Positions 13,750 to 48,380 of a stretch of 64,000 nt of DNA are shown here, one piece after another. A model generated the notes under the pieces. The model ran no database searches, was not told the DNA's origin, and saw only the letters and a list, made by a program, of their open reading frames with translations. Location: contig NC_135898.1 of NCBI RefSeq assembly GCF_964194155.1, positions 17,918,001-17,982,000 of the forward strand, in the 5' to 3' direction. The translations under genes and the position numbers were made by a program. Source of the stretch: Cetorhinus maximus. Lineage: Eukaryota. Every line of letters begins with the position of its first letter. Positions within the stretch are counted from its first letter, which is position 1.

Positions 13750-13788
13750 AGCTCTGAAGAAGGGTCATACAGGCTCGAAACATTAACT
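13750..13788 (+). ncRNA. Hammerhead motif (right arm)
   Basis: AGCT CTGAAGA AGGGTC ATACA GGCTC GAAAC ATT AACT. Confidence 0.65.
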
Positions 13789-15085: not shown

Positions 15086-15223
15086 CCTTAGTTCTGTTGA
15101 AGAGTCATACGGACTCGAAACGTTAACTGTGTTCCTCTCCGCAGATGCTGTCAGACCTGCTGAGTTTTTCCAGGTATTTTTGTTTTTGTTTTGGATTTCC
15201 AGCATCCGCAGTTTGTTGCTTTT
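15086..15223 (+). mobile_element. 138-bp Penelope-derived hammerhead mini-element
   Basis: Same sequence family as 11034-11209. 15-bp TSD AGCCTAGTA[G/T]ATAGT at 15071-15085 and 15224-15238. Confidence 0.88.
15090..15128 (+). ncRNA. Hammerhead motif (core CTGTTGA variant)
   Basis: AGTT CTGTTGA A GAGTC ATACG GACTC GAAAC GTT AACT: perfect stem II, one core substitution. Confidence 0.7.
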
Positions 15224-16520
15224 AGCCTAGTATATAGTTTGTTAACCAACTGTCTGTGCGATGTGCTAATTCTCTGATCAATAACCAAGAAGCATAAAAA
15301 CGTAATTTATGCTGCAGGGTTGTTTCTGATATAAATCTAGCATTGATTCAGCTCCAAAATGAAATATTTCATGCAAACCTTTAGTTTAATTACTCTACTT
15401 CCAATTTCAGTGCCATGTTAGAAGTGAGACTTCAAAACTAAAAGCAGTTAATTTCGTCCTGAAATTCAAACGTAATCTACATTGAGATATTGTGCTTTCT
15501 GGCATGTCTCCTGTTACTTGTTTTTGAAATTCTTTCCATTAAAATTTAATGATACTACCTTTCCCCATCATAGTGATGTAAAATATTGCCACTTCAGCTT
15601 ATGGCTTTCATACCAACACGACAGCAGTGTTGACTCACTGTAAATGCTATTGTGGGGTTGCTCTTTGATCTATGTTGTTTGTCTCCAGGCAACAGCGAAT
15701 GCAGTGTGATAATGTGATGTCAATTCTTCAACATCCATGCGACAATTCCAGCTAATGGCTGTGCTATGAGAAACATAGAAGATGATAAGTCTAATCTTAG
15801 CTAAAGCTGAACTGAACTGTACTAGAAATTGCTCTGTGTAAGAGTGTAGACAGAAATGAAGACAGTCGAATGGACATTTCTGTAGCACACATCCTGAAAT
15901 TGTCAAACAAAGGTCTCCATAATTACTTTATATGTTTGAGGAACAGTCTGTTTGCACAACTCCCTCTTATACATATGCTCACATCTCTGGTCATTTGTTA
16001 CAAGTTGATGCAAATAAAACACATGCTTAAACTATGTAGATTTTCTAATCAAACAAGCACCAGCACAATACATAAAGGCAGTATTTTTGCACTGAGGATT
16101 GCTGCTCAAATCCCCACTACCTCTCCTCCCCCAATATAAATGCAAATATCCACCCTCATTAGAATTCTTGCAAGTGTTTAATCATCATGCATTGTTAGGC
16201 CACTCGACGTTCCAACATTCATTCATCATTATCACCTTAGCTTCTTGTGGTCTTCTTACTGTTGTCAAGTGCAAAATAATGGTTTTCTTTGCATTGTTAA
16301 TAGCCTCAACACTTACACTTGTTTACATTGAATATACCAAGACTGCAGAGGTAATTATGCACTGCCAAAGATCTTCATTGAATACCTTAAAACTCAACAG
16401 GAAAAGTGCAAGGTTCACTCATGAAAGGCAAGAAAATGTTGTTTGTCATAATTAACAGATAACTGGTGAGGTTACAACAAATACCTCATTTGCGCAGCAC
16501 CGAAACAATACTTTAATGTA

Positions 16521-16655
16521 AAACAAAAACAGAATTACCTGGAAAAACTCAGCAGGTCCGGCAGCATCGGCGGAGAAGAAATCAGCCAACGTTTCGGGTC
16601 TTCATGACCCTTCTGGATTTCCAGCATCCGCAGTAGCTTTTAGCTTTTTGTTTTT
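16521..16655. mobile_element. Penelope-derived mini-element with internal inversion and partial hammerhead
   Basis: 16521-16613 is antisense (GAAGGGTCATGAAGACCCGAAACGTT on minus) and 16614-16655 is the sense 3' end (GGATTTCCAGCATCCGCAG). TSD ATACTTT(T)AATGTA at 16508-16520 and 16656-16669. Confidence 0.8.
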
Positions 16656-16844
16656 ATACTTTTAATGTAGCTCAGGATGATTCAAATTGGGAGCATCTTC
16701 ATGGTTACAGGTTAACCCTAATTTATTAAATAGATTGAGCAAGCTTCACGTACTTCTTGAATTGCAATTTCAGGAGATTTGCATTACATGAATTTGTTGT
16801 GTCAATGAGTTTTTCAAGTATGTAATGATACTGGGGTATGTAAG

Positions 16845-18320
16845 GAGCTAGACGGAGCAGACCATTGTATTCCCCAGCAACTGGAGGAAAAAACCTGTGC
16901 CAGGAACAAAGGTTGCCCAGTAAGTGAGAAGCAGGAGTCTAATGCCACACTCCTGGATGCAATGCAGGAAGTAGTTTAATAACCTAACCAGGTCAGGAAA
17001 AGTGAATGCAGATGCACATTAACCTACATTCTGCATGGACATTATCCCGTGCCCTCACCTTGCCAACCTAAGCATACTCCATCGTATCACAGGATGGGAT
17101 GCAGCCAGGTATTTTCATCTTGCCCACGCTACCCCCGCCTCCTCACTCAATGGAGGCATCAGTGAACTGAGACGCAGTCTTGGAATATCTCAGTTCAATT
17201 CTTTAACTTTTTTTTTCTTGTTTCCAAGATTGCATATTTGAATTGCCCTTTTGAATACTGAAGTTGAGATCATGCATGTGAGTCCTCATCACTCATACTA
17301 CTGCTGATTGGATGGCAAACTCAGAGTAAAATGATAATTAAGTGGTTAATTTAAAAGTTATTGGCAGACACACTGAGCATACTTCCAAGTTTTCCGCACA
17401 ATATTGGACTCTCCTATTCCCATCATGTCTTCCATTTAATACTGGGGCCAGAGTCTGCAGCAGTATAAACTTCAGGTGTTGACAGCGCCACAGATTTTCA
17501 ACAACATTCTTTTCATATGCTCGAAAAACTCAGTGACACACAGCAAATTTATATAATGCAAATCTCAAGACACTTTCTTCTCCAGGGAAACTGTAATTCA
17601 AGAGGCACTGGTGAGACTTAAAAATCTAGTCCATTGTTGGGTTTTACCTAGTTTCCCACACCTCACAAGCAACAAATACAGATGTTGGGCAGGGACAGAA
17701 GTGGAGAGTCCACTCCAAGCTCTGTTCAGTTGGACATAGATGCTGTCACCTGCAGCTGTCAATGCAAAGAAGAGTCATTGAGGAGCAGCAGACAATATGT
17801 GATGAGCTTTCCAAACACACTCACCATAATTGCAGAGAGAAGGAAAGAGTCAGTTTCAGGCGTGAATGGATTGTTGTTGAAGGCCATTGAGATGATGTGT
17901 TCTTCCCTAGATAGTCTGGGCAGTGCTGCGGAACATCAAAGCCTCCAATCAAATGAGTCCATTGACCATGATCATGTAGATCTGGATGCCAACATGCCTG
18001 CCACCTTAAATACAATGCCTTATCCTTACAGTGTCACATTGATCTGAAAGTGTTTTTGAGCACAGGCATAATGGTGAAATGCAGCTGGGCCATGAGAGGG
18101 ATGATGGTGAAAAGGGAGGTGGAAATGGGGACTCCACTTCTTACATTGCCACTTAACCCCTACATGCTGTCTCATCTCCTGGTATGCCAAATCTGCCTCC
18201 ACACAAATACAGGTGAAACAGTCTTGGTGGGGGACCCCCACTTGCTCCAAAACCCAGGGAACATTGGCTAAGAACTCTTTGGCAGTCAAATGCAGGGGTC
18301 CAAGCAGCCTGCTTCTAACT
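16845..18320 (+). pseudogene. Decayed Harbinger Myb/SANT gene remnant
   Basis: ~16855-17001 translates IVFPSNWRKKP...VRSRS..PHSWMQCRK*FNNLTRSGK, followed by GTGA. The ORF at 17682-18047 resembles the coiled-coil exon of the other copies. Confidence 0.6.
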
Positions 18321-18329
18321 TTGTTTAGG

Positions 18330-18530
18330 AATTGCACTGTGCAGTATAAAGGGTATAAATAGCTTAAACACATCATCAGTGATGTCAGATCACTTGTCAT
18401 TGGAACTCAGAGAGAGATGGTTCTGGAAAAAGCTTTGTGCTTATGTACCCCTGTATGTCATTATATATAGTTAATAAATGTTTGAAAGTTCCTGAGGTCT
18501 TGTTTCCAGTATTCTATGTTAAACACACCC
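18330..18530 (+). mobile_element. Possible solo-LTR fragment
   Basis: TATAAA, AATAAA and LTR-like composition interrupting the Harbinger remnant. Termini not resolved. Confidence 0.3.
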
Positions 18531-18929
18531 TGGAACTGTTTTTGATGATACTTCACACTGTGTAAGGAGTGTAAGAAAAGGAATAGTAAGGCTTTGCAGT
18601 TGCACAGGTACATACACATGGGTGTATGAGACAGTGTTGTGTTGTTAAGTTTCTGTTTCTCAGTTAGGTCACATAAACATTATTCTTTTGCACCACTTTC
18701 CCATTCTTTCCATTGTTGGGCACTGGATGGCAAGTCACTTTTAAACTGATCTGATGATGAATGACCGTGAATTGATGGGGGCCAACAGGAGGATATTTAA
18801 TGGGTGATTATTTGTTTGCAGGAATGCTTTGTGTCAGTAAATCGGCAGGGGGTGGGGGGTGGGGGGGGTAGGTGTAGCAGGAAGAGTGGTTGTTGCGTGT
18901 ACTTATGACATGATTCCACCACTATAATC

Positions 18930-20000
18930 TAAGTCAACCTCACACTTAAAAGGGCATCTCTGGCCTCCTGAACAACAATGTCAGCAGCTGAGGGTGCCTT
19001 ATACTCATTACTATCCTTCTCCTGGTCTTCCTCCTTCTTCCCCTCCAAATCATCAGAGAAGGATCTGAGCTCTTCGCTTTGTTCTTCCTGTAGGCCCAAA
19101 CCTCACTCCTTCAGAATGTGTGGAGCTCAGGACACCACAACCATTCTGGAACCCATGGCTCGTACATACTGAAGGCCACATGCAGATTTGCCGAAACACC
19201 CAAAGTGTATCTTCAACATGTCAATTGTCTGTTTGCTCACACATCTCATGATCTATGGCATTCATTGTAGCATTGTTGCACTTCAATGATTAGGTTTTTG
19301 ATGTGTGGTATCAGCCAAGTTTGAAATAGGTATTTCGATCTCCTCACAGCCACCCCTGAGGTATGCTTGCAGGTGCAAAGATATCAGGAAGCTTGACAGC
19401 AGCAAGCTATTACAGGAAGAAAGCATCATGGCAACTCCCTGGAATCTGACACTCATGTGCATAAATATTCTTTGTGGTTTCACACCACCTGCACATTAGA
19501 GAGAAGTCCTTACAGTTGACAAATACTCCAGCGTGATCCAGTGGGGTGGAGCCATAATTCTCATTTTGTGCAGTCAATGGCACCCTGCAGAAGTCAGCCA
19601 GAGCTGCAAACCTGATCTCCCACTCCTTCTAACTGGCATAATTGCAAGTAAATTTGATATAATTGCCAACCCCAAAGCCAACAAGCAAATGTCCTTTGCA
19701 TTTGTGGACCACCGACTGGGAAATTCTGGACATGTCTCTGGCAAAGCCCTGGAAGGATCCAGAGACACAAAAGATGTGTGATGATGGCTTTGACAGCCAC
19801 TGGTGAAGTGTGGGAGCGGGTGGTCTTCCAAGAGGTTGCGGATGTCTGGTGCTACGTGATGCAACAGCCAAAGACTTCTGAGACACTGCTCTTCAGGATG
19901 CTGTACCTCTGCCCTTAGATCCTGTTTCATACGTATTGCCTGCTGTGAGCTGCACTCCTCTGCTGCTGCCTTCTCTGCTGTTCCTCTCTCATCTGTGTAG
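18930..20000 (-). pseudogene. Decayed Harbinger (DDE_Tnp_4-type) transposase, convergent with the Myb remnant
   Basis: Minus-strand pieces EEQCLRSLWL, PGSCHDAF and PQGWL.GD, plus an acidic C-terminal stretch. Many stops and frameshifts. Confidence 0.75.
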
Positions 20001-20069
20001 CTACAGGCCTATGACTAGAAGATTGCTGGTGTTTTGCTCCTCATCGATCAACCAAAGTGCTACCCATCC

Positions 20070-21475
20070 TGATGTGATAGAGCAAATCTACTCAGTGTAA
20101 GAAGTAATTGTAGTATAAGGGTCTGGCACATATAGGTTAACGTGGGACTGTGTATAGTACCGCCCACACACTGTTGTAAGAGAACAGAAGACCTGCACCT
20201 AGGGGTCAGTGTAATGTTGGACAGAGCTGTGTGTAGAACCAAGCATGAAGACAGCTCCTAGCTTAGACCTTTACTGTACCTATGTATATTGTTCCGGACA
20301 GGAGAGATACAGGCAAATGCTACTTATTTCCTCTCACCACCTGTCTGTAAGCAGAAGGTGTTTTGAATTATTTTTAAAGTATGTGGTGGCATGTTTTCCC
20401 AAACCCTTCGCTTGTGTGATCCAATTTAATAATAACCCACAGCTAACCTGCGTTATAATTAACGCATAAGGTGAGCTTATTTCACATCCAAAGCCTGGAG
20501 GAGGAATGTTCACAACTTCCCATTCACTACACACAGACACACACACACACACACACACAGAGTAAAAGGAGGAACAGATAAAGGAGTTTTACAACTATGG
20601 ATAGTAACAGTACAAGAACCACAGAAATGAATCTTAGTTCACATGATTTCAAAAGTCCAGAGTCAGAGTCCAATGAGGAATTCTTTCACGAAAGAGTCCG
20701 AGTTCAGCTGGCTGAAGACCAGAGTTGTAGAATTTGTTTTACAGTTGGTGCTGATACTGCAAGATGAAATAGATACACAGAGACTGGGTCAGTTCTGCAG
20801 GTGATGGTAGGAAATCTTCCAGCATATGCAGGCTGTTGTTGTGCCTGGAGGGCTGCTTTTTTGTGGTTCGCCAGTTGGATGTTAAACAATAGACTGCTTG
20901 TGAGGCTGAAGATGCAATGTTAAAACTGTCCAAAAAGGCCAGAGGTTTGGGTTATGTGACATGTCGCATTAATAGTTAATTGCAGCTTAACAATCAGTTC
21001 TGTGCTTCTGGCCAGAATTCCATTGTTCCTCCTTCGGAGAGAGACAAAGTGGTTATTAGCATCTCTTCCAGTATAATGAGTTTCATCTCTCTCCCTTTTG
21101 TGATTGTTTTGGTTGAGGGCTCCATTTCATCTGCACTTCCTTTATCTTTGTTGATTATGAGGGATCTGTACAATGGGGTGTGAGATTCCACAGACTGAGT
21201 GAAGAATTCTTTTGTCCTTGTAACTTTTGGTGGTAGCTCCCAGAACAAAGGGCCAGCCCAGTAGTTGTGTAATTTGTAGCAGCCATCCTTTTTGGAAAAT
21301 CCATTTTTTAAAAATAGCAATAAGAATGAAGTTTTGAACGTACAGTGTTGGATTTCTTTTCATGTCGTAGGAACCCAACAAGATAGCTTCTAGTAGTTAA
21401 TAAATAACTGTCGAACTACCTAAGACTACGAATACTTAAAAAAGACCTATAAAATATGCCCAACACTTTATAACA
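20070..21475. mobile_element. LTR-like sequence(s), probably one LTR nested in another; contains a (CA)n tract
   Basis: TG...CA-like ends, TATA and AATAAA signals at ~20115 and ~21399, and a different internal segment at ~20290-21380. Boundaries uncertain. Confidence 0.4.
20529..20559. repeat. (CA)n microsatellite
   Basis: ACACACAGACACACACACACACACACACACA. Confidence 0.95.
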
Positions 21476-21734
21476 GTAACCTTACAGCAAAACTACTGTA
21501 AACAACTTTTCCCACCAGCAGGTAAGAAATCAACTATTCTTGTATATTTTGAACATTTCTTTTTCAAACACTTCAATCACAAATGTTTTTAGGTCTCACC
21601 TTAGACTCAGGCCAAAATTAAACTTTTGCTTCAGGTCCTTGAGGCATTTCAGCTCCTATGCACGTGACACCTCTTCTTCAAGCGATACCAAAATATTTCC
21701 TTGGCAGGCAGTGGTGGGCTATGGACAAGTCTTG

Positions 21735-22040
21735 TGACCACTGTGGTTAGCATCCCTGCCCCTGAGCCTGAAGGCTTGGGTTCGAGTCCCACTCCAAGTT
21801 TTGATGGCCATGGAAGGTGTGTTCATATTGTGGCCAAGCAGGTTGATTATCAACCTCTAAATCTTTTTACTCCATGTGGCAGGCAGCAAAAGCGGGAGAG
21901 TCTCCTGGTCAGCATGCTTGGTGCAGAATGGCACCCCTCAAGCTATAACCTCTGGCAACAGGCAGGCAACCTGTTCCAGGGAAATCCACCTATGAAAACA
22001 GACATAAGCATGTGCTTTGTCTGCTTCACGTGTCATTAGA
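21735..22040 (+). mobile_element. tRNA-derived SINE
   Basis: A-box-like TGTGGTTAGCA and B-box GGGTTCGAGTCCC (~21778-21790), followed by a non-tRNA body. Confidence 0.6.
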
Positions 22041-22169
22041 CGCGGGAAGCTTCTAAGTGTAATTCAGCAGTGGGCTCCCTGTGTGTGTGTCAAGTTACAT
22101 AATTAATATCTCCTCACCCAGAAAACTAGGTTAGGTCATGGTGTGATCAGGACAACAGACAGATATCCA

Positions 22170-22645
22170 GCTGACAATGGAGGGAGTGAATGTTTAAGGT
22201 GATGGTGGGGTGCCAATTAAGCGCACTGCTTTGTCCTGGATAGTCTTGAGAATCTGGAGTATTGTCGCAGCTGCAGTCATCTAGGTAAGTGGAAAATACT
22301 CCATCACATTTCTGACTTGTGCCTTGTAGATGGTGGACAGGCTTTGGGAAATCAGGAGGTGAATTATTCGCTACAGGACTTTCAATCCCTGACCTGTTCT
22401 TTTAGCCACAGTATTTATATAGCTGGGCCAGTTAACTTTCTGATCAATGGTAATTTTCAGGATGTTGATAGTGGAGGATTCAATGATGGTAATGCCATTG
22501 AATGTCAAGGGGTGATGGTTAGGTTCTCTCTTGTTGGAGATGGTCATTGCCTGGCACTTGTGTGGTGTGAATGTTATTTGCCACATTTTAGCCCAAGCCT
22601 GAATATTGTTCAGGCCTTGCTCCACATGGGCATGGTTGAGTGTGA
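22170..22645 (-). mobile_element. LINE RT C-terminal fragment (family of 6313-6979)
   Basis: ORF 22371-22667(-) IQAWAKMWQITF.PHKCQAMTISNKRE...TIDQK.NW. Confidence 0.85.
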
Positions 22646-22664
22646 ATGGTGCTAATATCTCCAA

Positions 22665-23400
22665 CACCAGCTTGGAACTTTAAGTGCTTAGAAGTTCATA
22701 GCCACGGGTCTTTCATAGTCACTGGTAACATCATCCTCACCCTGCTCTGGGGTTGGAGTTGTAGTTACAACAGTAGGTCTCATTGAGGACCTCCTTAGTG
22801 AAGCGTAGACCTTTCAAATATTGGTCTTTGCTGATGTTCAGGTAGGAGAATTGATGCCAAAATATCCTGAGCAAATATGACGTCCTACTGAAAGCACTTC
22901 TACTCCTGCCCCTCTTCCTTCTTCTAGCAGTTTGTCCTACTCTGCATGGCTTCTGCTCATTGATCCAGTTATGCGCTATTCCAATTAGAAGGCCTACTCA
23001 TGCACCCATATTAGGGGGCAATTGGTTTGTGCAGAAGGCTTGAGGTTAGCAAAAAATGGTTCAGCACCTGTTATACTATTACCTGTAGAACTTTTGAAAC
23101 AACTATGGCAAGCACCAAAAACATGGAGAATTGTAGCAACAGCCAGAAGAAAATCAATGAACAACTAACTTGTAAATAGTTGATAATCATTTTAAACGGT
23201 GGAGGTGGGGAGACGGTCTCCTTCTTGCTGTTGAACATGTGTTCAGCTATGTGAGCTTAAGAGAGAACGTCAGCTGGAGCATTGAGCTCCAGGATGACAG
23301 TGACAGCATTAAGTCAGCATTGCACTCTGACTGACATCATAATCTACTTTGAATACTTCCAATGGACATTAACTCCTTGCGCATTAATGTCTTTACTAAG
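22665..23400 (-). pseudogene. Harbinger transposase N-terminal fragment plus upstream region
   Basis: Minus strand RIFWHQFSYLNISKDQYLKGLRFTKEV... matches the SYLN..E.QC.RRL...KE.V HTH region of the 31377 transposase. Confidence 0.7.
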
Positions 23401-24790
23401 ATGACATCAAGCATACTTTGTGTCAAAGTGTGCATACTTGTGTCAAACAGATGCCAGTTTGGTACCCTCAGGGCACTTAGAGCACTCAAAAAGCAGGCAC
23501 TATTGAGTGCAATTTCTTGCCCATACCTTTTTCGGATTCAAAGGTTCCACTGCCCATTTTGGAAGCTGGCCTTTGGTTCACTGGAAAAAAGACTTCAATA
23601 TTTGTTTTTTTAGCTAATTTTTTCAAGTTAAATAAAGACCTAAGTTGTTTTATTGATAGCCTAGATAGTGAGATCATACTTGACAAGACACCTCATCAGT
23701 GGCAGAACAAGAGTTCATGTAACTGTTAGACAAGATATTTCCAAAACCAAATTGAAGGGAAGTAGACATGCCCTTGGAACAGTAACCCCAGGCCACCCAC
23801 TCATTTCATTACATACATGTGGCACTTTAAGTGACAGCCTTAGGCTAATATCTGAAAACAATTTAAATAATAACACTGTTCAGGCATGTAACATCTTAAT
23901 TAGATAATGTTTTGAAGTTTTAAATAGTTAAGCCATAGGATTTTAAATTAAAGAAATTGTGCGTATTTGGATGCTGCATTCAGTTAAACTGTCACATATG
24001 GTAAACTAACTTTAAAGATAAACTAAACTTTACAATCTCATTTCTAACTGAAAGTACTGAAACAGTTTCATAAGCATAATATATAAGTGAGTAACAAACA
24101 AATAAAATGATAGCTCAGAGAATAACCAACAACTTAAAAATTACTTTGTGTTACCCCTTGAAATATTTTGTCTGTTTCAGTTGCACTTAATACCTTCTCC
24201 AAATACACCATATTCTCAGTTCACCATGAAGTTTTTATGCCACCTAGCTGCTGATATTCCAATAAACTGGATTAACCAGCGCACACAGCACTATGGAATC
24301 TGTTTTCACTATGATAGTTGCTGGAGTGTAGAGAATTAAATGGGAAGAAAAACCTTTGTACACCAAGATTGTGGGTGGTCTGTGCCACTTCTAACAATTG
24401 AATACCTCTGAAACAACTAATCAGCTTAATGTACTGCATTTATTGAAACCAGACTTTTTTTTAACTTGATTTCCCTTGTGTTAATTTCCCTGAAAATATC
24501 ACAAGTGCCAAGACTATATCTGGCTTTCAGGCTTCTTTGACCACCAGAGTGTTTTCAATTAATATAACTGCTTTTTAAGCTAATGAAAAGGTCCCTGATA
24601 TATTTCAGAATGTGTAGTGCTGCAGATAAAAATACAAATTTAAAGAGTGACCATCAAAACCTGAGAAGTTAACTTCCATAAAATGCCAACTATAAGTTCA
24701 AGAATTCCAATGTTTATAACATCTATTCACAAATAGCATCTTTCAGAAAACCTGCACATGAATTATACTTACACTAAGCAAAAATGTCTT

Positions 24791-25024
24791 TCCCGTACCC
24801 CAGTGAGAGTCAGTGTGTGTGGAACAGAGCCTCAGTGAGAGTCGGTGCATGTGGAACCCGTACACCAGTGGGAGTCAATGTGTGTAGAACCGGTACACCT
24901 GTGAGAGACAGTGCATGTGGAACTGTACCCCACTGGTGTCAGGGCGTGTGGAACCCGTACACAACTGAGAGTCAGTGTGTATGGAACTGCACCCCAGTGA
25001 CAGCCAGTGTATGCGGAACCTACC
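24791..25024. repeat. Minisatellite, ~32-33 bp unit, ~7 copies
   Basis: Consensus approximately GGAACCCGTACCCCAGTGAGAGTCAGTGTGTGT, repeated head-to-tail with no spacers. Confidence 0.92.
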
Positions 25025-25062
25025 AAGTATAGTAACTAGTATTTCTTTACTTGAAGGACTAG

Positions 25063-26712: not shown

Positions 26713-26851
26713 AATGATCACATTAGACTAAAAGTACAAAGAAACAAATACTTTTCTATTTTACAGGCTCATATCCCTCCCAAACAGTAACTAAAATAGT
26801 TTGAAAATTTCTGAGACCCTTGAACTTGTCTGTCTGAACTCGATTTTATAA

Positions 26852-29341: not shown

Positions 29342-29384
29342 ATGGGCCATGCCGCTTTTAATATTCTGAAAATGAGAAGGGGAT

Positions 29385-36346: not shown

Positions 36347-36349
36347 AAA

Positions 36350-37650: not shown

Positions 37651-37659
37651 TCATCCATT

Positions 37660-38200
37660 TCATGTAACACTTCTTCCTTGTGCTCCCACTCCTCAGCTCT
37701 TGCCTGATAGATGATGACAAGGGCTGTTCCCTCATAACGAGCAGGTTGTGCAGCATGCATCATGCTACTACAAATCTTGAAACCTGGTCAGCTGAGTACT
37801 TCAAGACTCCCCCAGCGTGATTCAGATAGCAGAAGCATTGCTTGAGGGCATCAATGGTGCACTCTATAATGATCTTGTGAGACCATGGCTCTCATTGTAG
37901 GCCTGTTATACTCGTTAGCCATGTCATGTTTGGATAACTCTTATTACGCAGTAGCTAACCTTTGACTTGGCATGATGGGTTAAATGCAGATGGCACAGCA
38001 GACTGATGCAAAATGAAGGGCTTGTTACTGCTCAAGGATAACGGGCATTCACCTGAATGATGCACTGTCTATGGTCACAAAATAGCTGCACTTTAAGCAA
38101 GTGGAAATGGACGATTCACATGTGGCACATGCAAGGTAATGTACGTGCAGTCTATGGCACTCTGTACAATGGTGAAATCTGCAATCCATACAAACCCTTG
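37660..38200 (-). pseudogene. Harbinger transposase C-terminal fragment
   Basis: Minus strand YNESH...IIECTIDALKQCFCYLNHAGGVLKYS...CMLHNL. Confidence 0.75.
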
Positions 38201-38479
38201 TACTTGCTCTTCTTGCTTGTCTCTATGTCTTACGCAAGAGCTGAGGAGTGGAAGCTTAGCCTGCCCTACTTAGTGATATTTCTCAAATGTCACAGATGGT
38301 GCCCAGCACCCTTTGCTTTCCTCGCAGTATGCTGGGAGCTCTTGACAAGGCTGTCAACAGCAGGATCAAATAATAAGCACTTCGCTCCTTTGTTTCAATC
38401 CAGGATTCAATATAGTTGAAAGTTAGCCATGGTTGAGAAGCGACCTGCAAATCACCTTCCAGGGAGAAGAGTTCAGGAA

Positions 38480-40035
38480 AAGATATAGAAGCAAGAGTAT
38501 GCCATTCGGCCCCTCAATCTTACTCCGCCATTCAATAAGATCATGGCTGATCTGCTTGTGTTTCAAATTCCACATTCCCATCTAACCCTGCTAACCTTAG
38601 ATTCTTGTTAGGCAAGGGAATCAATCTACCTCTGCCTTAAAAATATTTAGTGACTCCGCTTCGACTGCCTTCTGAGACAGAGAGTTCCAAAGTTGCACAA
38701 CACTCTGAGAGAAAAAAATTCTCCTCATCTCTGTCCTAAAAGGGCACCCCCTAATTTTAAAATAGTGCGCCCTAGTTCTGGATTCACCCACAAGAGGAAA
38801 CATCATTTCCGCGTCCATCTTGTCAAGACCTTCAGGATCTTATATACTTCAATCAAGTCACCTCTTACTCTTCTAAACTCCAGTGGAAACAAGCCTAGCC
38901 TGTCCAACCTATCCTCATAGACCAACCCACTCATTCCTGGTGTCAATCTAATAAACCTCCTCTGAACCACCTCTAATGCATTTACACCCTTCAGTAAATA
39001 ATGAGACCAAAACACACAATATTTGAGATGTGGGCCTGAATTTTTCAGGTGGCAGGTGGGAGCAGGCGGGGACGGTCGTGGAGCCGATCGCCATCCACGA
39101 TCGGCTCCGCGCCGCCATTTTTATGCGGGCAGGCCAATTAAGGCCCGCCCAGCGTAATACGAGAGCTGTAGCACTCAGCATTAATTGTGCGGGCAGGGGG
39201 AGGAGGAAGGGTCGGGGCCAGTGCTCTTTCGTGCATGCACGCGAAAGAACACTTCAATCTACCTGAGGCACAGAGCTGCCTCAGGGAGATTGAATCGATA
39301 TGAAATAATTAAATAAATGGTTTAAAAATTTATTTAAACACATCCCGTACATGAGATGGGACATGTTTTTATATTTCATAAAAGCTTTACGAAACCTCAT
39401 CCTGCTCGTCGATGAAGTTTCCTAAAAAACGCGAAGGCTGCTTGGCCTTTTCGCCTGCCCGCCAACCTTAAGGTTGGATGGGCAGCATTAACAATTGCAT
39501 CAATTACTTTCTTAATGGCCTTAATAGGCCGTTTACATATTGACAGGTACGCAGCCGACTCCGGCATGCACCTGCCGAATGAAATATTGCAGGACTGCGC
39601 GATGACGTTGGGACGCACGCCCGACGTCATTGCGATTCATTTTGCGCAGCAGTGTGTTGGGCCTGCCCCTGCACGCCAACTGAAAAACCCTGCCCGTGGT
39701 CTCACCTGTATAACTGAAGCATAACATCCTTACTTTTATGTTCAATTCCTCTTGTAAAAAAGGATAGCATTCCATTAGCTTTCTTAATTACTTGTTGTAA
39801 CTGCATACTAACTTTTTGTGACTCATGTACTAGAACACCTAGATCCCTCTGCACCTTGGAATTTTGCAGTCGTTCTCCATTTAAGTAATATTCTGCTTTT
39901 TTATTCTTCCTGCCAAAGTGAACAACTTCACATTTTCCCACATTATATTCCAGCTGCCAGAGTTTTGCCCACTCACTCAATCTATCTATATCCGCCTGCA
40001 GCCTCCTTATGTTTCCTTCACAACATACAATAGCT
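38480..40035 (-). mobile_element. CR1 LINE 3' fragment interrupted by a MITE
   Basis: RLQADIDRLSEWAKLWQ..YNVGKC, RGDLIEVYK and WNSL motifs. The LVRPHL codons are split at the MITE. Confidence 0.92.
39033..39695. mobile_element. Harbinger-family MITE (663 bp)
   Basis: Ends GGCCTGAATTTTTCA and TGAAAAACCCTGCCC. TSD GTG (39030-32, 39696-98); removing the MITE and one TSD copy restores the CR1 frame. Confidence 0.92.
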
Positions 40036-41789
40036 CCACCATTAGACCCCCAAGAATGGAATAACTTTGAAAATACATGTGTATATTCTTCTTTTAGTGC
40101 ACATCTTGAAAGCAAATGAAAACATGCTGATGCCAGTGGACATCTGACAACATCCCCAGTCCCCAAATATATGTACACACCCTCACCTACAAGGTATTGG
40201 CTGATACCCCTTTACTTATTTTTTATAGTTGCTCTGTATCCAAATGGAACAGAAGCTGCTCATTCAATATTTGCTATTTGCCATTATAGTGAGAAAACTT
40301 GGGGTGATGGTAAAGAGGGAGGAGAAGGAAGGATATTTTTTACTATTTCCACTATTTTTAAAAAGTAGACATAGTTTAAGCTTGGCAAATGCTTTGGTTT
40401 TTCACATTTTTGGATTCTCTGAGAATTGAACTTCAAAACTGATCTACCGAAAGGTTTTTGCCATTTATTTCATTTTTGAATAGTCATAATTTGAAGTCCG
40501 ATCCGATTACAGCTAACTTTTTCAAATACATAATTACATTTTTATATTTATGGAATCATTTTCCAAAGTTTCCCACAGTTGGGAAGCCTTGTTCACCTCC
40601 CTTATATCTAGAAATTCAGGTGAATTCTGCAAGTGATTTTCTGAGCATTTAAGTCATGCGTAGCATGCACCTGAATTTCAGATGTGTGTTTTCAGTAGGC
40701 AAGTCTCCATACTGAAGTGTAATTGGAAAATTTTCCCATTGGATCTTTATCCAGTTTTTTTACAATACATTTACTGATGATGGAGGATTATATAAGATAA
40801 GTAAGCTTCTGTCATCGATTTTGCAGGTTAATTAAGTAATGTGGAAAATTCTGTGGTGTGTAATGGTGAAATACAATATAAATATCTGAGATTTCATGAA
40901 GTTTTTTGAATAGATATGCTTTTAGGATTATCCTCCCAGTCGATATTCCGGACACAACATTTCTCCATAATTAACTGCATGTTATTCTCTTTAACTCTAC
41001 AAAAGCTACATTCAAAGCAGTGAATATAACTGTATCTATCATCCAGTGACATTTTTAACTGCAACTTTTCATCTCTAGAACCCCTATTTTTTAAGGCTTT
41101 CAACCTTCTGCCCCAAGTGACCCTCATGACAAAGGTGGAAGCTGTGGCATTACATGATTGAACACTGGAGTTTATCTAGGTTTTTGCTCCATCTTCAAGA
41201 ATCTGCAGATATGCAACTCTGGAAAACTGATGGTTCTAGCATTATTAATTTGAGCTGTGTCCTGTGCCAATTTGAAGGAATCAGTACATGGTCTGTGCTA
41301 TTTACAAGGTTGTATTTGTATGAAATTAAGTTTGCCAATTTGGAGGGCAGGAATATCTGATGGAATGACCTCTAATTAAAGGCAACCTACAACATTTTAA
41401 AGGGGTGTATTTTTCAGTGGTAAAAAGTGGACAGTGATATTGTGCAGCAGCAAACAGGATGACTTCAAGCAGGTCCCGTTTCTTGTATGTAAGAGTGGAG
41501 ATACTCATTGACCAAGCAAGCAGCAGGGAGCAGGTTCTTTTCTCTTCTGACAAGTGACAAATGCTGAGGTAAATTGGTTAACAGACATGGAGAGCAGTGA
41601 CAGATCATGTAAATCCCATGAACAAACTCCAAGATCTGGCTTCAGTACAGGAAAATTATTAATGATCTGACTTGGACTGCCAAGGTGAGGCTATCCATCA
41701 TATCTCTTACAGATTTTGCACAGCTCCAGGGGATTGTATTTTAACCCCAGAACTATTAATTGTTCCCTTTCCTATTTCTCATACTCAAG

Positions 41790-44240
41790 ACTGGGCCAAT
41801 CAAATTAGCAATAATACTGAGGCAGATTAATTCCTGGAGTGTGTGCGAGATAGTTTTTTAGACCAATACGTTGAGGAACTGCAGGGAACAGGCTATCCTA
41901 GATTTGATATTGTGCAATGAGAAGGGGTTAATTAATAATCTTGTTGTGCGGAGTCCTTTAGGGAACAGTGACCATAACATGCTATAATTCTTCATTAGGA
42001 TGGAAAGTGAAGTAGTCTGATCTAAAACTAGGATCCTAAATCTAAACAAAGAAAACTACGATGGTGTGAAGTGTGAGTTAGCTAAGATTAATTAGGGAAC
42101 TTCATTAAAAGGTATGACGGTGGATAGGCAATGGCTAATTTTAAGGAACGAATGTATGCATTGCACAGTTATACATTCCCTTCTGGCGCAAAAACACAAC
42201 AGGAAACGTGACCCAACCATGGCTAACAAAAGAAATTAAGGATAGCATTAGATCCAAAGAGGAGTCATATAAAGTTGTTGGAAAAAGTAGCAAGCCTGAG
42301 GATTGGGAACACTTTATAATTCAGCAAAGGAGGACCAAGAGATTGATTAAGAGGGGAAAAATAGAGTATGAGAGTAAACTTGCAAGGAGCATAAAAGCGG
42401 ACTGTAATTGCTTCGATAAGTATGTAAAAAGAAAAAGATCAGTGAAGACAAATGTAGGTCCCTTACAGTCCGAAACAGGAGAATGTATAATAGAGAACAA
42501 GGAAATGGCAGAACAATTAAACAAATACTTTGGTTCTGTCTTCACGGAGGAAGACACAAATAACTTCCCAGAAACCAACTTCCCAGGAACCAAGGGTCTA
42601 GTGAGAAGTGGGAATTGAAGGAAATTAGTGTTATTAAAACAATAGTGCTGGAGAAATTAATGGGACTGAAAGCTAATAAATCCCCAGGGCTTGATAATCT
42701 ACATCCCAGGGTACTAAAGGAGGTGACCGTGGAAATAGTGGAGGTGTTGGCTGTCACCTTCAGAATTTTTCTGTAGATTCTGGAACAGTCCCAGCAGATT
42801 GGAGGGTGGCAAATGTAACCCCACTATTTAAAAAAGGAGGGAGGGATAAAACAGTGACTTACAGACCGGTTAGCTTAAAATCAGTAGTAGGGAAAATGCT
42901 AGAGTCTATTATAAAGGATGTAATAACAGGACACTTAGAAAATATCAACGGGATTAGACAAAGTCACATTGGTCAGAAAGGGAATTCATGTTTGACAAGC
43001 CTACTGGAGTTTTTTGAGGACGTAACTCGCAGAATAGATAATAGAAAGCCAGTGGCTGTGGTGTATTTGGATTTTCAGAAAGATTTTGATAAAGTCTCAC
43101 ATAAGAGATTAGTGTGAAAAATTAAAGCACATGGGATTGCAGGTAATATATTGGCATGGATTGAGAATTGGTTCGCAAGCAGGAAACAGAGAGTAGGAAT
43201 AAATGGATCTTTTTTGGAGTGACAGGAAGTGACTAGTGGGGTACTGCAGGGGTGCTTGGGACCCAGCTATTCACAATATATATCAGTGATTTGGATGAGA
43301 GAATCAAATGTAATATTTCCAAGTTTGCTGACAACATGAAACTTGGTGGGAATATGAGCAGTGAGGAGGGTGTTAAGAGGCTTCAAGATGAATTAGACAA
43401 GTTGAATGGGTGGGCAAATACATGGTAGATGCAGTATAATGTGGATAAGTGTAAAGTTATCCACTTTGGTAGGAAAAGCAGAATGGCAGAGTATTAGTTA
43501 AATGGTGATAGATTGGGAAATGTTGATGTATGAAGGAACCTGGATGTCCTTGTACATCAATCACTGAAGGTAAGCATGCAGGTGCAGCAAGCAGTTAAGA
43601 AGGCTATTGGTATGTTGGCCTACATTGCGAGAGGACTTGAGTACAGGAGCAAGGACATCTTACTGCAGCTATACAGGGCCTTGGTGAGGCCACACCTGGA
43701 GTATTGTGTGCAGTTTTGGTCTTCTTATCTAAGACTTGCCACAGAGCGGGTGCAGCAAAGGTTCATCAGACTGACTCCTGGGATGGCAGGATTGTTGTAT
43801 GGGGAGACATTGGGCCAATTGGCCTGTATTCACAGGAGTTTAGAAGAATGAGAGGAGATCTCATTAAAACGTATAAACTTCTGACAGGGCTGGACAGACT
43901 GGATGCAGGGATGATGTTTCCTCTGGCTGGGGGATCTAGAACAAGGGGTCACAGTCTCAGTAAGCCATTTAGAACTGAGATGAGGAGAAACTTCTTCACT
44001 CAGAGGGTGGTGAACCTGTGGAATTCTCTCCAAAGAAGACTGTGGAGGCCAAGTCACTGAATATATTTAAGAAGGAAATAGACAGATTTCTGGACTCTAA
44101 AGGCATCAAGGGGTATGGGGAGAGAGCGGGAATATGGCATTGAGCTAGAGGATCAGCCATGATTATATTGAATTGCAGAGCAGGCTCGAAGGGCTGAATG
44201 ACCTACTCCTGCTCCTATTTTCTATGTTTCTATGTTCTTA
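41790..44240 (+). mobile_element. Long CR1 LINE ORF2 fragment (endonuclease C-terminus to 3' tail), decayed
   Basis: LGNSDHN, PWLTKEI, ANVTPLFKKG, YRPVSL, VYLDFQK.FDKV, KFADN and VRPHLEYC motifs. Tail (TTCTATGT)n. Confidence 0.95.
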
Positions 44241-44527
44241 ATTTCTGTTTTAATTTCACAGCACTTAATTTCTGTTTCCAATCATACAAACATATGATAA
44301 TGTCAGGCAGGAAAAGATTCACTGTTTCATTAGACCTGGTCTCATAACTGAAATGCCTTGTGCACTACAATGCATACAACCTGACCCCACCCCACCTAAA
44401 AGCCATAATATCTCCTGAGGGCGGCAAAGGACAGATACAAACCGAGGCCAGTTAAGAGGAATGCATCATTCATTCTGAAATCCCTTAAATAGAGCAAATA
44501 TTAATCCATTTTGGTCCTCTTGCAGGT

Positions 44528-45440
44528 GAAGCTGGCACATAACTGGAGTGAGTGTTACAGAAGAAGACCTACCACCCTATAGACACTGTTACCAACAGAG
44601 AAGGCTGCCATCAACACAATGGACAGGGAGTGGATGTCCAGCATCAGCAATTGCTGTGCTGGAGGCTAAACGCGTCAGGGTGTTTAGGTATCTTCCTTTG
44701 TCCTTTCTACTTAACTATCACTCACACCGACACACACGCAGCATGAACACCCAGTGGATGCAGTGACAGCAAGTTGGAGGGTCTGCGTTGGATTATTCAT
44801 GAAGCACAAGTGAGCAAAAGCAGATGGAAAGGACAACCCAGGAAACAGCTCACCAAAGGCTCGTGCATATCCTACTTCTGCTAGATATGCAGGCTTTAGG
44901 TATACAGCCTGGAAAAGAACAATCCTTTCTGTGTACCAGCAATTTCTCAAGCATTTCACGGCTTGCCAGGGATCTTCTGCAACTTGTCAGAGAAAGTCAA
45001 AGAATCCAGTCACAAATTGTGTGGGGTTCTGCTGTATGGCATTCCACACTCTGCATTCATCCATGGACTATCCATCACCTTAATGGACCCTCCCTGCAAG
45101 AGTCTGAAGCAAAAATAATAGCATTTTTCGAATGCTCACATTGCATCATGCAAGCCCTCCTCTGTCTTGGCATGCTGGGAAGCAAAATGGACAGGTGCTT
45201 CAGTCAGATCACGGATAAACAGGAGAAAAGCTAAACTGCAACAAGGCAGACATGCAATGGGAATGGAACATGTTGCCATCTCTCAGGATGACAATATATA
45301 TTGATCCCTTCGTGACCCCTTCTACCACAAACCCAGCTGGGTCAAACCGCCCCATCAGCCACCAAGTTGCAGCACTCTGCAGCCAGGTGCTTTCAGGTTC
45401 GAGCTCCTGGCGATTGCTGACTCGAGGATCTCATAAACTC
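44528..45440 (+). pseudogene. Decayed Harbinger Myb-gene exon 2/3 remnant
   Basis: Acceptor TCTTGCAG followed by VKLAHNW (K.AHN motif). Downstream sequence resembles the exon 3 of other copies. Confidence 0.45.
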
Positions 45441-45559
45441 TTAGCTGAGGTACAACAGCCTTCCACCTCTTATTTTGCAACCATTGCTTCTTTTTTAATA
45501 TAAATTAGTTACTTGGCCTTGGAGGTACAGGGCACAATTTGACATGAAATATGACACAA

Positions 45560-45860
45560 AGGTTGAAAATGTAATAAACATGAAGAAGACAGTTAAAAAA
45601 ATATGAGGTGATACATTTTGGTGGGAAGATTGAGGAGTCACAATACAAGCTAAATGGTACAATTTTAAAGCTGGGGGTGGGGGTTGGTGATGGTGGCGGG
45701 GTATGGCCGGGGGTGGTGTCCTGGTACAAGAAAGAGGTCTGAGAGTGTGCACAAACCTTTGAAGGACAGGCTAACAATGCAGCTAATAAAGTATCTTGGA
45801 TCCTGGGCTTTATAAAGAGAGAATAGAGTACAGCAGCCAGGAAGTTATGCTAACCCTGTG
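45560..45860 (+). mobile_element. CR1 LINE fragment
   Basis: EVIHFG..., Y.LNGT and LGFIKR.IEY motifs. Confidence 0.65.
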
Positions 45861-45879
45861 ATGCAAATGTTTCATCTGG

Positions 45880-46125
45880 CAAACTTGGCATTAGTCATCT
45901 GCTTTATACAGGCAAAAACTGCAGGTTGACTGATGTTATTGTTATTGATATTGGCAACCTGGAGGGAGCTGAAGGAAAAGAAGTTGAGGGCTGCAGTGAC
46001 CTTGACTGCAACTGTTGATTGCAGCTATGCTAAGGAGGTGACAATACTCTGTCACGGCCTTCCTGGAGAAGGAAAACGTCTACGTACACTGTTCTTCAAT
46101 GAACATGTTGTCCTGTGCCTATAAT
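45880..46125 (-). pseudogene. Harbinger transposase N-terminal fragment
   Basis: Minus strand EEQC...FSRKAVTEYCHLL and AVKVTAALNFFS..SLQ. Confidence 0.7.
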
Positions 46126-46639
46126 ACAGCTCTGTAAAAATCAAACAGAAAGGAATTTTAAATACAATATTGTACTGACAACCAGACTTTTATGAATCAA
46201 GCGAGTGAAAAGCCATTGCACGAAATCCCAGCAGGATTCTAAACAGGCAAGCAGCACTGAAAGGGTGAACAGGGGTAAACAATCACAAATTAATATACAA
46301 TTGACAAAAATTAAGAGATATAATGAGGCTCATACAATCCGTGTCCATGGCTTCCTTCCAAAGCTTGCAGAATTTGACACCCATATAGTCGTCATTCATG
46401 ACATTCAGTGAAGTACACTCCTGAAATGATCAATGTGTGCACCATTACTATGGGCCTTCTACAAACTTCTCTTTTATCTATTTTTCTCTTTTCTTGTCTT
46501 GAAGCTATGAACGTGAGATTTGTGTGCCTTTATTAATTGTGAATTGTGTAAACAGGTATATTTGTTTGTTTACTTTTTCTTAGATTAAAGCAACCATCAT
46601 TGTCAGTTGTATTACCAGACAATAATGAAAGGTTATAGC

Positions 46640-46938
46640 TAGGGTTGCCAACCGTCCAGGATTGGCCTTGACAAAAATCGTAGGGACATTTTAAAAAATT
46701 TCTTTGAGCATTTAATTTATCAGATATAGAAATATTGAAATGGGGAGGGGAGAAAAAGACTGTTTGGCTAACAGTCAAGCATCATCCAATTGGGTATTGA
46801 GTCGTTTTACTTTCCAATCGGCATGGGAAGACCATGCGTCACAAGGATGGTTGTATTGACAGACTAAGGGCTGGAACATGGGGGAAAGACATGTAATGAA
46901 ACCTCCAAAAATACATTTAATCACAGTTGACAACCCTA
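46640..46938. mobile_element. hAT-superfamily MITE
   Basis: TIRs TAGGGTTGCCAAC and GTTGACAACCCTA. 8-bp TSD [G/A]TTATAGC at 46632-46639 and 46939-46946. Confidence 0.85.
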
Positions 46939-47039
46939 ATTATAGCCTATTCCCCAGCTTCAGCTTGTTGCTCTTGGTGAAATTTTATGAGCAAGTTAAA
47001 CAAGACAGATTGTTTATCAACTGAAACCTACCAAAAATA

Positions 47040-47450
47040 TAATCATAGAATGGGTATAGCACAGGAAGAAGCCATTCGGCATGTCAGCGCATGCTGGTTA
47101 GAGCAATTCAGCTAGTCCCATACCCCGTCTTTTCACTGTAGTCCTGCAAATCTTTTCTCTTTAGATAATTATCCAATTCCCTTTTGAAATCCATGTTTGA
47201 ATCTGCCTCCACCAGATTCTCAGGCAGTGCATTCCAGATCCTAAATATTGCATAATAAAAGTTTTTCCTCATGTCGCCTCTGGTTCTTTTGCAAATCACT
47301 TTAGATTGTTCTCTTCTGGTTCTCAACCCTTCCTCAATGGGAGCAGTTTCTCCCTATCTGTTCAGACCCCTCATGATTTTGAACACCTCTAATCAAACTT
47401 CCACTCAGCCTTCTCTTCTCTAAGGAGAACAGCCCCAGTTTGGCCAATCT
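47040..47450 (-). mobile_element. CR1 LINE 3' end
   Basis: RGDMRKNF...IWNALPE..VEA...FKRELD.YL motif and tail ATTCTATGATT. Confidence 0.85.
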
Positions 47451-47452
47451 GT

Positions 47453-47935
47453 AACAACAACGTATATTTATATAGCACCTTTAATTTAATGAAACATCTC
47501 AAGGTGCTCCTTGGAGTATTATCAAACAACATATGACACTTTGGAGACGAGGAGATATTAGGTCAGAAGATCAAAAGCTTGGTCAAAGAGGTAGTGTCTT
47601 AAAGGAAGAAAATGAGGTGGAGAGGCAGAGAGGTAGGGAGGGTATTCCAGAGATTGAAGCCTAGGCAACTGAAAGCCACCAATGGTGCAGCAATTAATAT
47701 CGGGGTTGCACAAGAGGCCAGAATTAGATGAGCGCAGATATCTCGGAGGATTATGAGGCTGGAAGAGCTTACAGAAATAGGGAGGGGCAAGGCAATTGAG
47801 ACATTTGAAAACAAAGGTGAGAATTTTAAAATCAAAATGTTGCTGGACTGGGTGTCAAAATAGGTCAGCAAGCATGAAACTTGGTGCAGGTTAAGACACA
47901 AGCAGCAGAGTATTGAATGATTGAATGTTTATGGT
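47453..47935 (-). mobile_element. L2 LINE 3' fragment
   Basis: AFSCLG..LWN.LP motif; tail GTGCTATATAAATATACGTTGTTGTT on minus. Confidence 0.8.
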
Positions 47936-48270
47936 GTCAGCATAAACTGAGACTGAAATGGAACAATTCTTTAGTGGAATAAAATATTAGTGATAACTCA
48001 AGCATCTGGATACATGACAAGGAAGCAAGCCACAATAGATGGCTGGACTGTCTGGTGCAAGTGAGAGTTGAGTTCCATCAGCCACTAATTGTCACCTTTG
48101 TATGTCTGTAATCAAAGGAAAATGGACATCAGCCACAGGGAGCTCCAGTTTGCTTTTGAGATTTTACATATTTCTTAGGTTTGAGCAGAACATCTCTAAA
48201 ATATCATCAATGTTCCTTTGGCCATACATTGCTATTCTGAAGTAACAGAAGTTCAAATTATACAAGTTAT

Positions 48271-48380
48271 CCTCTTTAGCTCTGAAGAAGAGTCTTATTG
48301 GACTTGAAACATTAACTCTGTTTCTCTCTCCACAGATGCTGCCAGACCTGCTGAGTTTTACCAGCATTTTCTGTTTTTAT
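48271..48380 (+). mobile_element. 110-bp Penelope-derived hammerhead mini-element
   Basis: AGCT CTGAAGA AGAGTCTTATTGGACTT GAAAC ATT AACT (48278-48317), then CCACAGATGCTGCCAGACCTGCTGAG. Direct repeat TTCAAATTATA at 48252-48262 and 48381-48391. Confidence 0.82.

What the first reader, a model, noticed from the sequence alone, without database searches (positions are those of the whole stretch)
15086..48380. Independent mini-insertions begin within ~10 nt upstream of the hammerhead core
Seen: the sense portions of the copies at 15086 (CCTTAGTTCTG...), ~11104 (CCTTAGTTCTG...) and 48271 (CCTCTTTAGCTCTG...) all start just 5' of stem I. They run ~105-140 nt to the element 3' end, and each has its own 11-15 bp TSD. 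Inference: a shared 5' boundary suggests a defined short RNA template or a structure-determined RT stop or template switch at the ribozyme, not random 5' truncation. Eight hammerhead motifs from two distinct families occur in these 64 kb.
Basis: partly seen in the sequence, partly recalled or inferred. Interest (0 to 1): 0.7.

Follow-up and report, generated by a model that had tools for sequence, protein, structure and literature searches.

The report
Penelope stubs start at ribozyme edge
Short copies of a known jumping gene, a Penelope-like retroelement, begin about ten times more often than expected just in front of its small hammerhead RNA motif, likely because the element's RNA starts there and the copying enzyme runs off its end, not because the motif cuts the RNA or stalls the enzyme.

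Summary
The three copies are real, TSD-flanked end fragments of one abundant Penelope-like retroelement (RT, CX4CxxC linker, C-terminal GIY-YIG). Numbering the C of CUGANGA as 0, 44 of 221 sampled arms start at -10..-1 against 3 at -20..-11; -10..+5 is enriched 6- to 43-fold in each subfamily group. The mode is -4/-3, so the window's copies (-8 to -10) are the upstream shoulder. Most young arms read through (98 of 139). The predicted cut site (+31) is not enriched (4 of 221). A TATA-like box lies 29-31 nt before an initiator-like A at -4. In 54 of 55 TSD-validated fold-backs both arms fall on the same side of the boundary, and 54 of 55 carry the tail on one arm only. Best reading (0.55): reverse transcription primes at two internal sites near the RNA's 5' end and runs off at the transcription start. 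No RNA start was measured. The 11104 copy is a fold-back; 'eight hammerheads, two families' was not confirmed. This scan reported the same pattern before, in this and other genomes; six literature searches did not show it in print.

The parts
15071..15085 (+). 5' TSD of the 15086 insertion (15 bp, one mismatch to 15224-15238)
15086..15223 (+). Simple solo-pLTR insertion with tail; starts 8-9 nt before the core
15090..15128 (+). Minimal type I hammerhead motif; core at 15094 has U at position 6; predicted cut between 15124 and 15125
   Evidence: cut site inferred from the min-HHR scheme of PMC4209133
15190..15223 (+). PLE 'tail' (about 35 nt; in full-length copies it leads into the ORF)
15224..15238 (+). 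3' TSD of the 15086 insertion
11020..11033 (+). 5' TSD (14 bp, exact) of the fold-back insertion
11034..11100 (-). Inverted pLTR arm, starting at +31 (the predicted cut site), no tail
11102..11209 (+). Sense pLTR arm starting at -10, canonical core at 11112, no tail
11210..11223 (+). 3' TSD of the fold-back insertion
48252..48262 (+). 5' TSD (11 bp, exact)
48263..48271 (+). 9-nt filler between TSD and element
48272..48380 (+). Simple solo-pLTR insertion of the older subfamily, starts at -10, core at 48282, no tail
48381..48391 (+). 3' TSD
12636..13852 (.). Long fold-back insertion of the same element; both arms read through the boundary to the ORF end; tail on the left arm only; 14-bp TSD (12622-12635 / 13853-13866, one mismatch)
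13719..13725 (+). TATA-like box, 31 nt before the initiator-like A at 13750 (-4); predicted promoter, untested
16520..16655 (.). Composite insertion: inverted arm starting at +5 joined to a sense piece that is little more than the tail
62189..63185 (+). 3' part of the element's ORF (GIY-YIG domain, 97% aa identity to a full-length copy) and 3' UTR, ending before the hammerhead

Best explanation
These are solo end fragments of a Penelope-like retroelement whose 5' ends pile up 3-5 nt before the hammerhead core, likely because the element's RNA starts there and the reverse transcriptase runs off the template. Shown here: the peak, its sharp upstream edge, two 3' end classes, one-sided tails, matched arm lengths, and a TATA-like plus initiator-like pair at the right spacing. 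From the literature: a PLE protein cuts both target strands and primes at two internal RNA sites that bracket the tail, on uncleaved RNA (PMC11167929). Inferred: when priming happens at the first pLTR-ORF junction of a transcript started in the pLTR, only about 100 or 138 nt lie upstream, so the cDNA ends at the RNA's first bases, like a retroviral strong-stop product; priming from both target ends on one RNA gives the head-to-head pairs; priming at a later junction or on read-through RNA gives the copies that pass the boundary. The hammerhead marks the spot only because it is the first thing in the transcript.
For: Peak: 41 ends at -10..+5 against 3.4 expected among 176 young arms; 14 against 1.5 among 71 young simple arms; 26 against 1.4 among 69 arms from unselected blocks; 6-, 17-, 43- and 17-fold in four subfamily groups. 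Edge: 44 ends at -10..-1, 3 at -20..-11, of 221. Genome-wide exact counts for one core variant: 38,555 matches from -3, 34,941 from -4 (9.4% lost), 4.2% with a purine at -5, 2.5% lost at -6; locally 6 of 6 matches without A at -4 were true ends, among 45, and 1 of 30 in long copies was a read-through variant. Promoter-like pair: TATA-like heptamer at -33..-35 in 60 of 62 reference UTRs (54 distinct around the pLTR), 11 of 12 clusters, against 30 of 6681 three-nt windows elsewhere in the UTRs; pyrimidine-A at -5/-4 in most references. A TATA+Inr pair in a pLTR is described for Adineta Pen2a (PMC3846280, passages) and TSSs lie in the pLTR in Penelope and Chlamys-3 (PMC8557442, PMC2377424, passages). 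3' ends fall in two classes, mostly +88..+104 and +126..+148. Fold-backs with TSD of 11 or more: 32 both short, 22 both long, 1 discordant against 26.6 expected if arms were independent; tail on exactly one arm in 54 of 55; arm ends correlate (Spearman 0.67, 50 pairs). The peak persists in subfamilies whose core lost A6.
Against: No transcription start was measured; the RNA data on hand are assembled contigs that cannot show starts. No clear cap-derived extra G: 755 G against 718 A at -5. None of 8 copies that continue into the ORF begins at -10..+5 (ends at +103, +76, +60, -19, -58, -68, -97 and beyond the reference). The mode also coincides with the 5' edge of stem I and with a polypyrimidine-AG motif. 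In the youngest subfamilies the box reads TATATTT, a weak match, and the references are relatives, not independent cases. D. virilis Penelope has a TATA-less promoter with its start about 120 nt before the hammerhead (46 nt plus a 75-nt intron; PMC2377424 and PMC4209133, passages). Matched arm lengths are also predicted by snap-back on the first cDNA.
Confidence: 0.55

Rival explanations
1. The RNA is longer at first and is trimmed by a 5'-3' exonuclease that stalls at the folded or protein-bound hammerhead, so the template's 5' end is set by structure; RT then runs off that end.
For: The mode (-4/-3) is the 5' edge of stem I; both arms share an end; no strong cap-G signal; a protein-assisted fold is reported for the Anolis element (PMC11167929).
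Against: The region folds no better than shuffles (z -0.71 and -1.48); stem I is 4-5 bp and has a mismatch in the older subfamilies, which still show a 17-fold peak; the TATA-like box at 29-31 nt would be a coincidence.
Confidence: 0.13
2. RT stalls or switches template at the ribozyme structure.
For: A modest shoulder at +6..+25, over stem II, in all young arms (22 of 176; hazard about 0.007 per nt against 0.002-0.003 beside it).
Against: The shoulder is nearly confined to fold-back arms (2 of 71 young simple arms), where joining at short palindromes trims ends; the main peak lies past the whole structure; 98 of 139 young arms read through; independent stalls would give about 27 discordant pairs, 1 of 55 was seen.
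Confidence: 0.1
3. One cDNA is made, reaches the RNA end or breaks off, snaps back on itself and is copied into a hairpin (self-priming, as proposed in PMC3846280). It differs from the best explanation only in how the second arm arises.
For: Matched arm lengths and short palindromes at junctions.
Against: Does not by itself explain why the two outer ends sit at two fixed positions, one tail apart, in 54 of 55 pairs, nor why simple insertions show the same peak.
Confidence: 0.1
4. The polypyrimidine-AG just before stem I is a splice acceptor, as in D. virilis Penelope, and the boundary is an exon start in spliced templates.
For: Pyrimidine tract plus AG at -4/-3 in most references; the Penelope intron ends at the 5' end of helix I (PMC4209133).
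Against: No upstream exon: of 60 peak arms only 3 had a sense-strand element match upstream (one a duplicated pLTR piece, two short matches at different places, not abutting); 0 of 300 pairs of simple arms share their 15 upstream letters; several arms abut the TSD or the other arm directly.
Confidence: 0.05
5. Hammerhead self-cleavage sets the template's 5' end.
For: The window's inverted arm at 11100 starts exactly at +31.
Against: 4 of 221 ends at +29..+33 against about 2.3 expected; the peak is 35 nt upstream, so the copies contain the uncut motif. Cleavage was not needed for insertion in vitro (PMC11167929).
Confidence: 0.03
6. The short copies are a self-propagating non-autonomous element (SINE- or retrozyme-like) with its own fixed ends.
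For: Very high copy number (33,524 and 46,312 exact matches to two pLTR motifs).
Against: Junctions and fillers differ in every copy; short copies match the same subfamilies as long ones; they lack the TATA-like box and the ORF start that binds the protein in vitro; no tandem arrays of the short unit in the 254 arms examined.
Confidence: 0.04

Closest known systems
Endonuclease-positive Penelope-like elements, Neptune/Nematis type (PMC8557442, passages)
   Same: Single ORF of about 920 codons with RT (PF00078) and C-terminal GIY-YIG, DKG motif, CX4CxxC linker, pLTRs with hammerhead, inverted 5'-truncated copy, tail on one side, TSDs.
   Different: Nothing structural. The passages read describe 'a high degree of 5' truncation' with no preferred point; here about 30% of young arms that reach the motif stop within 16 nt. 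Neptune versus Nematis was not resolved by a tree.
Poseidon PAc of Anolis, internal initiation at two sites (PMC11167929, main text and part of methods read)
   Same: Two 3' end classes one tail apart; uncleaved hammerhead in the template; both target strands extended.
   Different: PAc lacks the CX2-5CxxC linker and its ORF starts inside the hammerhead; here the first ATG is about 150 nt downstream. The text read does not map genomic 5' ends or propose run-off at a transcription start.
Adineta vaga Pen2a and relatives (PMC3846280, passages)
   Same: Inverted pLTR, one-sided 31-bp tail, TSD, putative TATA plus Inr in the pLTR, palindromes at inverted junctions, solo pLTRs.
   Different: Few copies, so no end distribution; inversions ascribed to self-priming on an antisense template and solo pLTRs to recombination or deletion.
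Minimal hammerheads of metazoan PLEs (PMC4209133, results and discussion read)
   Same: Short stem I, extra base before stem II, palindromic 15.2-16.2 region, mostly single dispersed motifs.
   Different: The two youngest subfamilies have U or C at core position 6.
Non-LTR retrozymes (10.64898/2026.07.22.740005, parts 1-3 of 5 read)
   Same: Non-coding, hammerhead-bearing, derived from PLE pLTRs.
   Different: Retrozymes are head-to-tail tandem arrays; these are single or head-to-head insertions with TSDs.
Retroviral minus-strand strong-stop DNA (recalled, no call)
   Same: Works like it under the best explanation: internal priming near the RNA 5' end, then run-off.
   Different: Target-primed and integrated as such; no tRNA primer or strand transfer shown.

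Membership tests
EN+ Penelope-like element | Single ORF with RT and C-terminal GIY-YIG endonuclease | tested here: met
   920-926-codon open frames; RVT_1 over cut-off, GIY-YIG E 4.5e-4 (just under cut-off) in L156 and over cut-off in the window fragment
EN+ Penelope-like element | pLTRs in direct or inverted arrangement | tested here: met
EN+ Penelope-like element | 30-40-bp tail on one side | tested here: met
   54 of 55 TSD-validated fold-backs; 36 of 93 simple arms
EN+ Penelope-like element | Target-site duplications | tested here: met
   11-18 bp, mode 14, in 55 of 68 called pairs
Neptune/Nematis clades | CX2-5CxxC motif between RT and EN | tested here: met
   C-x4-C-x2-C in the translated ORF; definition from PMC8557442
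Neptune/Nematis clades | RT phylogeny placing it in Neptune | not tested
   no tree built
Minimal type I hammerhead | Stems I and II, GAAA, UH cleavage triplet | tested here: met
   descriptor scans
Minimal type I hammerhead | Intact CUGANGA core | tested here: inconclusive
   met at 11112, 13754, 48282; not met at 15094 and in the two youngest subfamilies
Minimal type I hammerhead | Self-cleavage | not testable with these tools
   no excess of ends at the predicted site
Non-LTR retrozyme | Head-to-tail tandem units each with a hammerhead | tested here: not met
   single or head-to-head insertions among 254 arms; one partial direct duplication at a junction
TATA+Inr RNA polymerase II promoter | TATA-like box about 30 nt before an initiator-like A | tested here: met
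   29-31 nt; 11 of 12 clusters; spacing rule recalled
TATA+Inr RNA polymerase II promoter | Capped transcripts starting at that A | not testable with these tools
   contigs only; cap-G count not decisive

The most novel reading that the evidence does not exclude
The PLE hammerhead is not mainly a cutter but a 5'-end device: the folded, protein-bound motif sits at or defines the first bases of the template RNA (as leader or exonuclease barrier), one RNA is primed twice from the two target ends, and tens of thousands of stubs are a base-resolution fossil map of that RNA end.
Probability: 0.15. Interest if true: 0.65.

Novelty: new member of a known kind. Interest (0 to 1): 0.33.

Why it matters
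The element and its insertion shapes are known. What is added is a measurable regularity in the poorly understood PLE cycle: a preferred 5' end and matched arm lengths. If the run-off reading holds, the many solo hammerhead pLTRs in animal genomes are by-products of internal priming near the RNA start, not random truncation or recombination; transcription starts of PLE families could be read from genome sequence; and the head-to-head structure has a direct in vitro test with the existing PAc system.

Tried and rejected
RVT_1 family search returned other retroelements. Pfam found nothing on a partly frameshifted copy. RNA contigs from 4 coded runs (RNA status guessed) cover the pLTR heavily but cannot show starts, and listed no GT..AG joint: no evidence either way. 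Cap-G test: not decisive. Shift of the peak with TATA spacing between subfamilies: numbers too small and confounded by a palindrome at -4..-1 in the older group. Spliced upstream exon: not found. Cut-site peak: not found. Alignment artefact from subfamily divergence: rejected, because long copies align through the same bases, TSDs abut several ends directly and exact counts agree. The four hairpin repeats at 96, 36766, 39391 and 59708 were checked as a possible second hammerhead family: plain inverted repeats, not picked up by the scans. Rows dropped: of 254 arms, 31 under 88% identity (listed; 10 of them also at -10..+5) and 2 near a block edge; of 68 called pairs, 13 with TSD under 11, several of them mis-paired neighbours. 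Arms starting downstream of about +60 are invisible to the census. Of 94 planned C1 stretches only 40 were obtained. Supplements of the papers were not read; Fig. S2 of PMC11167929 (genomic coverage) may bear on the claim that the 5' peak is not in print.
Full report
Numbering. The C of the hammerhead core CUGANGA is position 0; the predicted cut lies between +30 and +31 (inferred from the minimal-hammerhead scheme in PMC4209133). The window lies in a 4.0-Gb genome. That it is shark-like is recalled and echoed in earlier scan notes; no call of mine tested it.

1. The observation. All three sense pieces exist and begin 8-10 nt before the core. 15086-15223 abuts a 15-bp TSD and carries a tail. 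48272-48380 has an exact 11-bp TSD but a 9-nt filler before the element. The 11104 piece is the right arm of a fold-back: its 14-bp TSD also encloses an inverted arm, 11034-11100, which starts at +31. TSD scores of 11 or more occur in 7 of 1000 random flank pairs. BLAST shows eight pLTR pieces in the window, but only four hold a motif with both stems, one of them with U at core position 6; the two 'families' are subfamilies about 80% identical. Rfam lists no hammerhead family.

2. What the repeat is. A 23-letter pattern from the ORF end has 4,134 exact matches, and a protein search led to copies with open frames of 920-926 codons. [quoted passage not shown] The hammerhead lies 360-570 nt after the ORF-end motif used as anchor, about 95 nt before the pLTR end; the tail is the sequence that leads into the ORF in full-length copies. 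Two pLTR motifs have 33,524 and 46,312 exact matches; these count arms, not insertions.

3. I took 854 kb of unselected blocks from ten contigs (264 kb of it the window and its flanks) and 541 kb around matches to motifs downstream of the hammerhead, and aligned every arm to 54 natural reference UTRs. Of 254 arms, 221 passed (31 dropped for identity under 88%, 2 for block edges). Ends per ten positions: +30..39, 10; +20..29, 14; +10..19, 15; 0..9, 24; -10..-1, 44; -20..-11, 3; -30..-21, 3. The mode is -4 (13) and -3 (10). In -10..+5 there are 41 ends against 3.4 expected among 176 young arms, 25 against 2.1 among 93 simple arms, and 26 against 1.4 among 69 arms of unselected blocks. Genome-wide exact counts for one core variant agree: 38,555 matches reach -3, 34,941 reach -4 (9.4% lost), 4.2% have a purine at -5, and 2.5% are lost at -6. 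The T-only count at -5 is confounded by a subfamily with C there and was not used. Locally, all 6 of 45 matches without A at -4 were true ends; 1 of 30 in long copies was a variant. The peak is real but partial: 98 of 139 young arms that reach +5 read through, and 52 of 176 reach the ORF end. The window's three copies belong to a shoulder of 7 ends at -8..-10.

4. What the peak is not. It is not the cut site: 4 ends at +29..+33 against about 2.3 expected, although the window's own inverted arm is one of them. It does not need an intact core: the two youngest subfamilies have U or C at position 6 and show 17- and 6-fold peaks. It is not where a helix should stop RT: young simple arms have 0, 2 and 0 ends at +26..35, +16..25 and +6..15, then 14 at -10..+5, and the region folds no better than shuffles. 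A shoulder over stem II exists, nearly all in fold-back arms. It is not a spliced exon start, although a pyrimidine tract plus AG precedes stem I and the D. virilis intron ends there (PMC4209133): no shared upstream sequence was found in 60 peak arms.

5. What fits. A TATA-like heptamer starts at -33 to -35 in 60 of 62 references and 11 of 12 clusters, 29-31 nt before an initiator-like A at -4; elsewhere in the UTRs it occurs in 30 of 6681 three-nt windows. I looked for it after reading scan note e1-9277450. 3' ends form two classes, mostly +88..+104 and +126..+148, matching the two internal RT start sites that bracket the tail in the Anolis element, which extends both target strands and uses uncleaved RNA (PMC11167929). 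Among 55 fold-backs with a TSD of 11 or more, 54 have the tail on exactly one arm (the exception is the window's 11034-11209), and 54 have both arms on the same side of -10, where independent arms would give about 27 discordant pairs. Long pairs match closely too (-148/-146, -185/-190, -245/-234). The simplest account is one RNA primed twice, both cDNAs running to the same 5' end, which is often the transcription start, then trimmed and joined. A few junctions repeat the last five bases of the element, as expected when RT runs out of template; this is anecdotal.

6. Against this reading. No RNA start was measured. G is not clearly favoured at -5 (755 G, 718 A). None of 8 ORF-continuing copies starts in the peak. 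The mode coincides with the edge of stem I, so exonuclease trimming up to a folded or protein-bound motif stays open. Snap-back on the first cDNA (PMC3846280, passages) also predicts matched arms. D. virilis Penelope has a TATA-less promoter with its start well upstream of the motif (PMC2377424, passages). The census cannot see arms that start downstream of about +60, such as the tail-only piece at 16611.

7. Known or new. The element, inverted pLTRs, one-sided tail, TSDs, minimal hammerheads and internal priming are all published. Six searches and the texts read did not show a mapped 5'-end peak or the run-off explanation; supplements were not seen. Earlier notes of this scan describe the same pile-up and the same reading in other genomes and in this one; they are unchecked AI notes and are not counted as support. 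Verdict: a real regularity of a known element class, with a likely ordinary cause and a clear test; interest 0.33.

Noticed in passing
window 15094-15100; references of clusters 6 and 7: The two youngest subfamilies carry U or C at hammerhead core position 6 yet have tens of thousands of copies; earlier scan notes report the same.
   Followed up: partly
window 15174-15181; L153, L156: A splice-donor-like site about 80 nt after the core, present only in the younger subfamilies; an intron across the pLTR-body border is described for Chlamys-3 (PMC8557442). No such joint was listed in RNA contigs.
   Followed up: partly
window 16520-16655; L151 about 6684-6717: Inverted arm joined to a sense piece that begins close to the start of the tail; the same arrangement precedes a full-length ORF in L151.
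   Followed up: no
window 62189-63185: Young ORF fragment (97% aa identity) whose 3' UTR stops before the hammerhead, so it lacks the usual 3' end.
   Followed up: no
window 96, 36766, 39391, 59708: Four copies of an unrelated dispersed repeat with a short perfect hairpin; not a hammerhead by my scans; family not identified.
   Followed up: partly
G000 many contigs, e.g. C21:27308847-27338692: A very young retroelement with a 1303-codon open frame occurs in head-to-tail arrays with a period of about 7.3 kb at many sites.
   Followed up: no
L061-L064 (C1:41715001-41755000): An 8-kb unit repeated in tandem four times at 95-97% identity, carrying PLE fragments.
   Followed up: no
L155, L152: Inverted arms of 2.1-2.4 kb that are 99.9% identical, i.e. 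very recent fold-back insertions that include most of the ORF twice.
   Followed up: no
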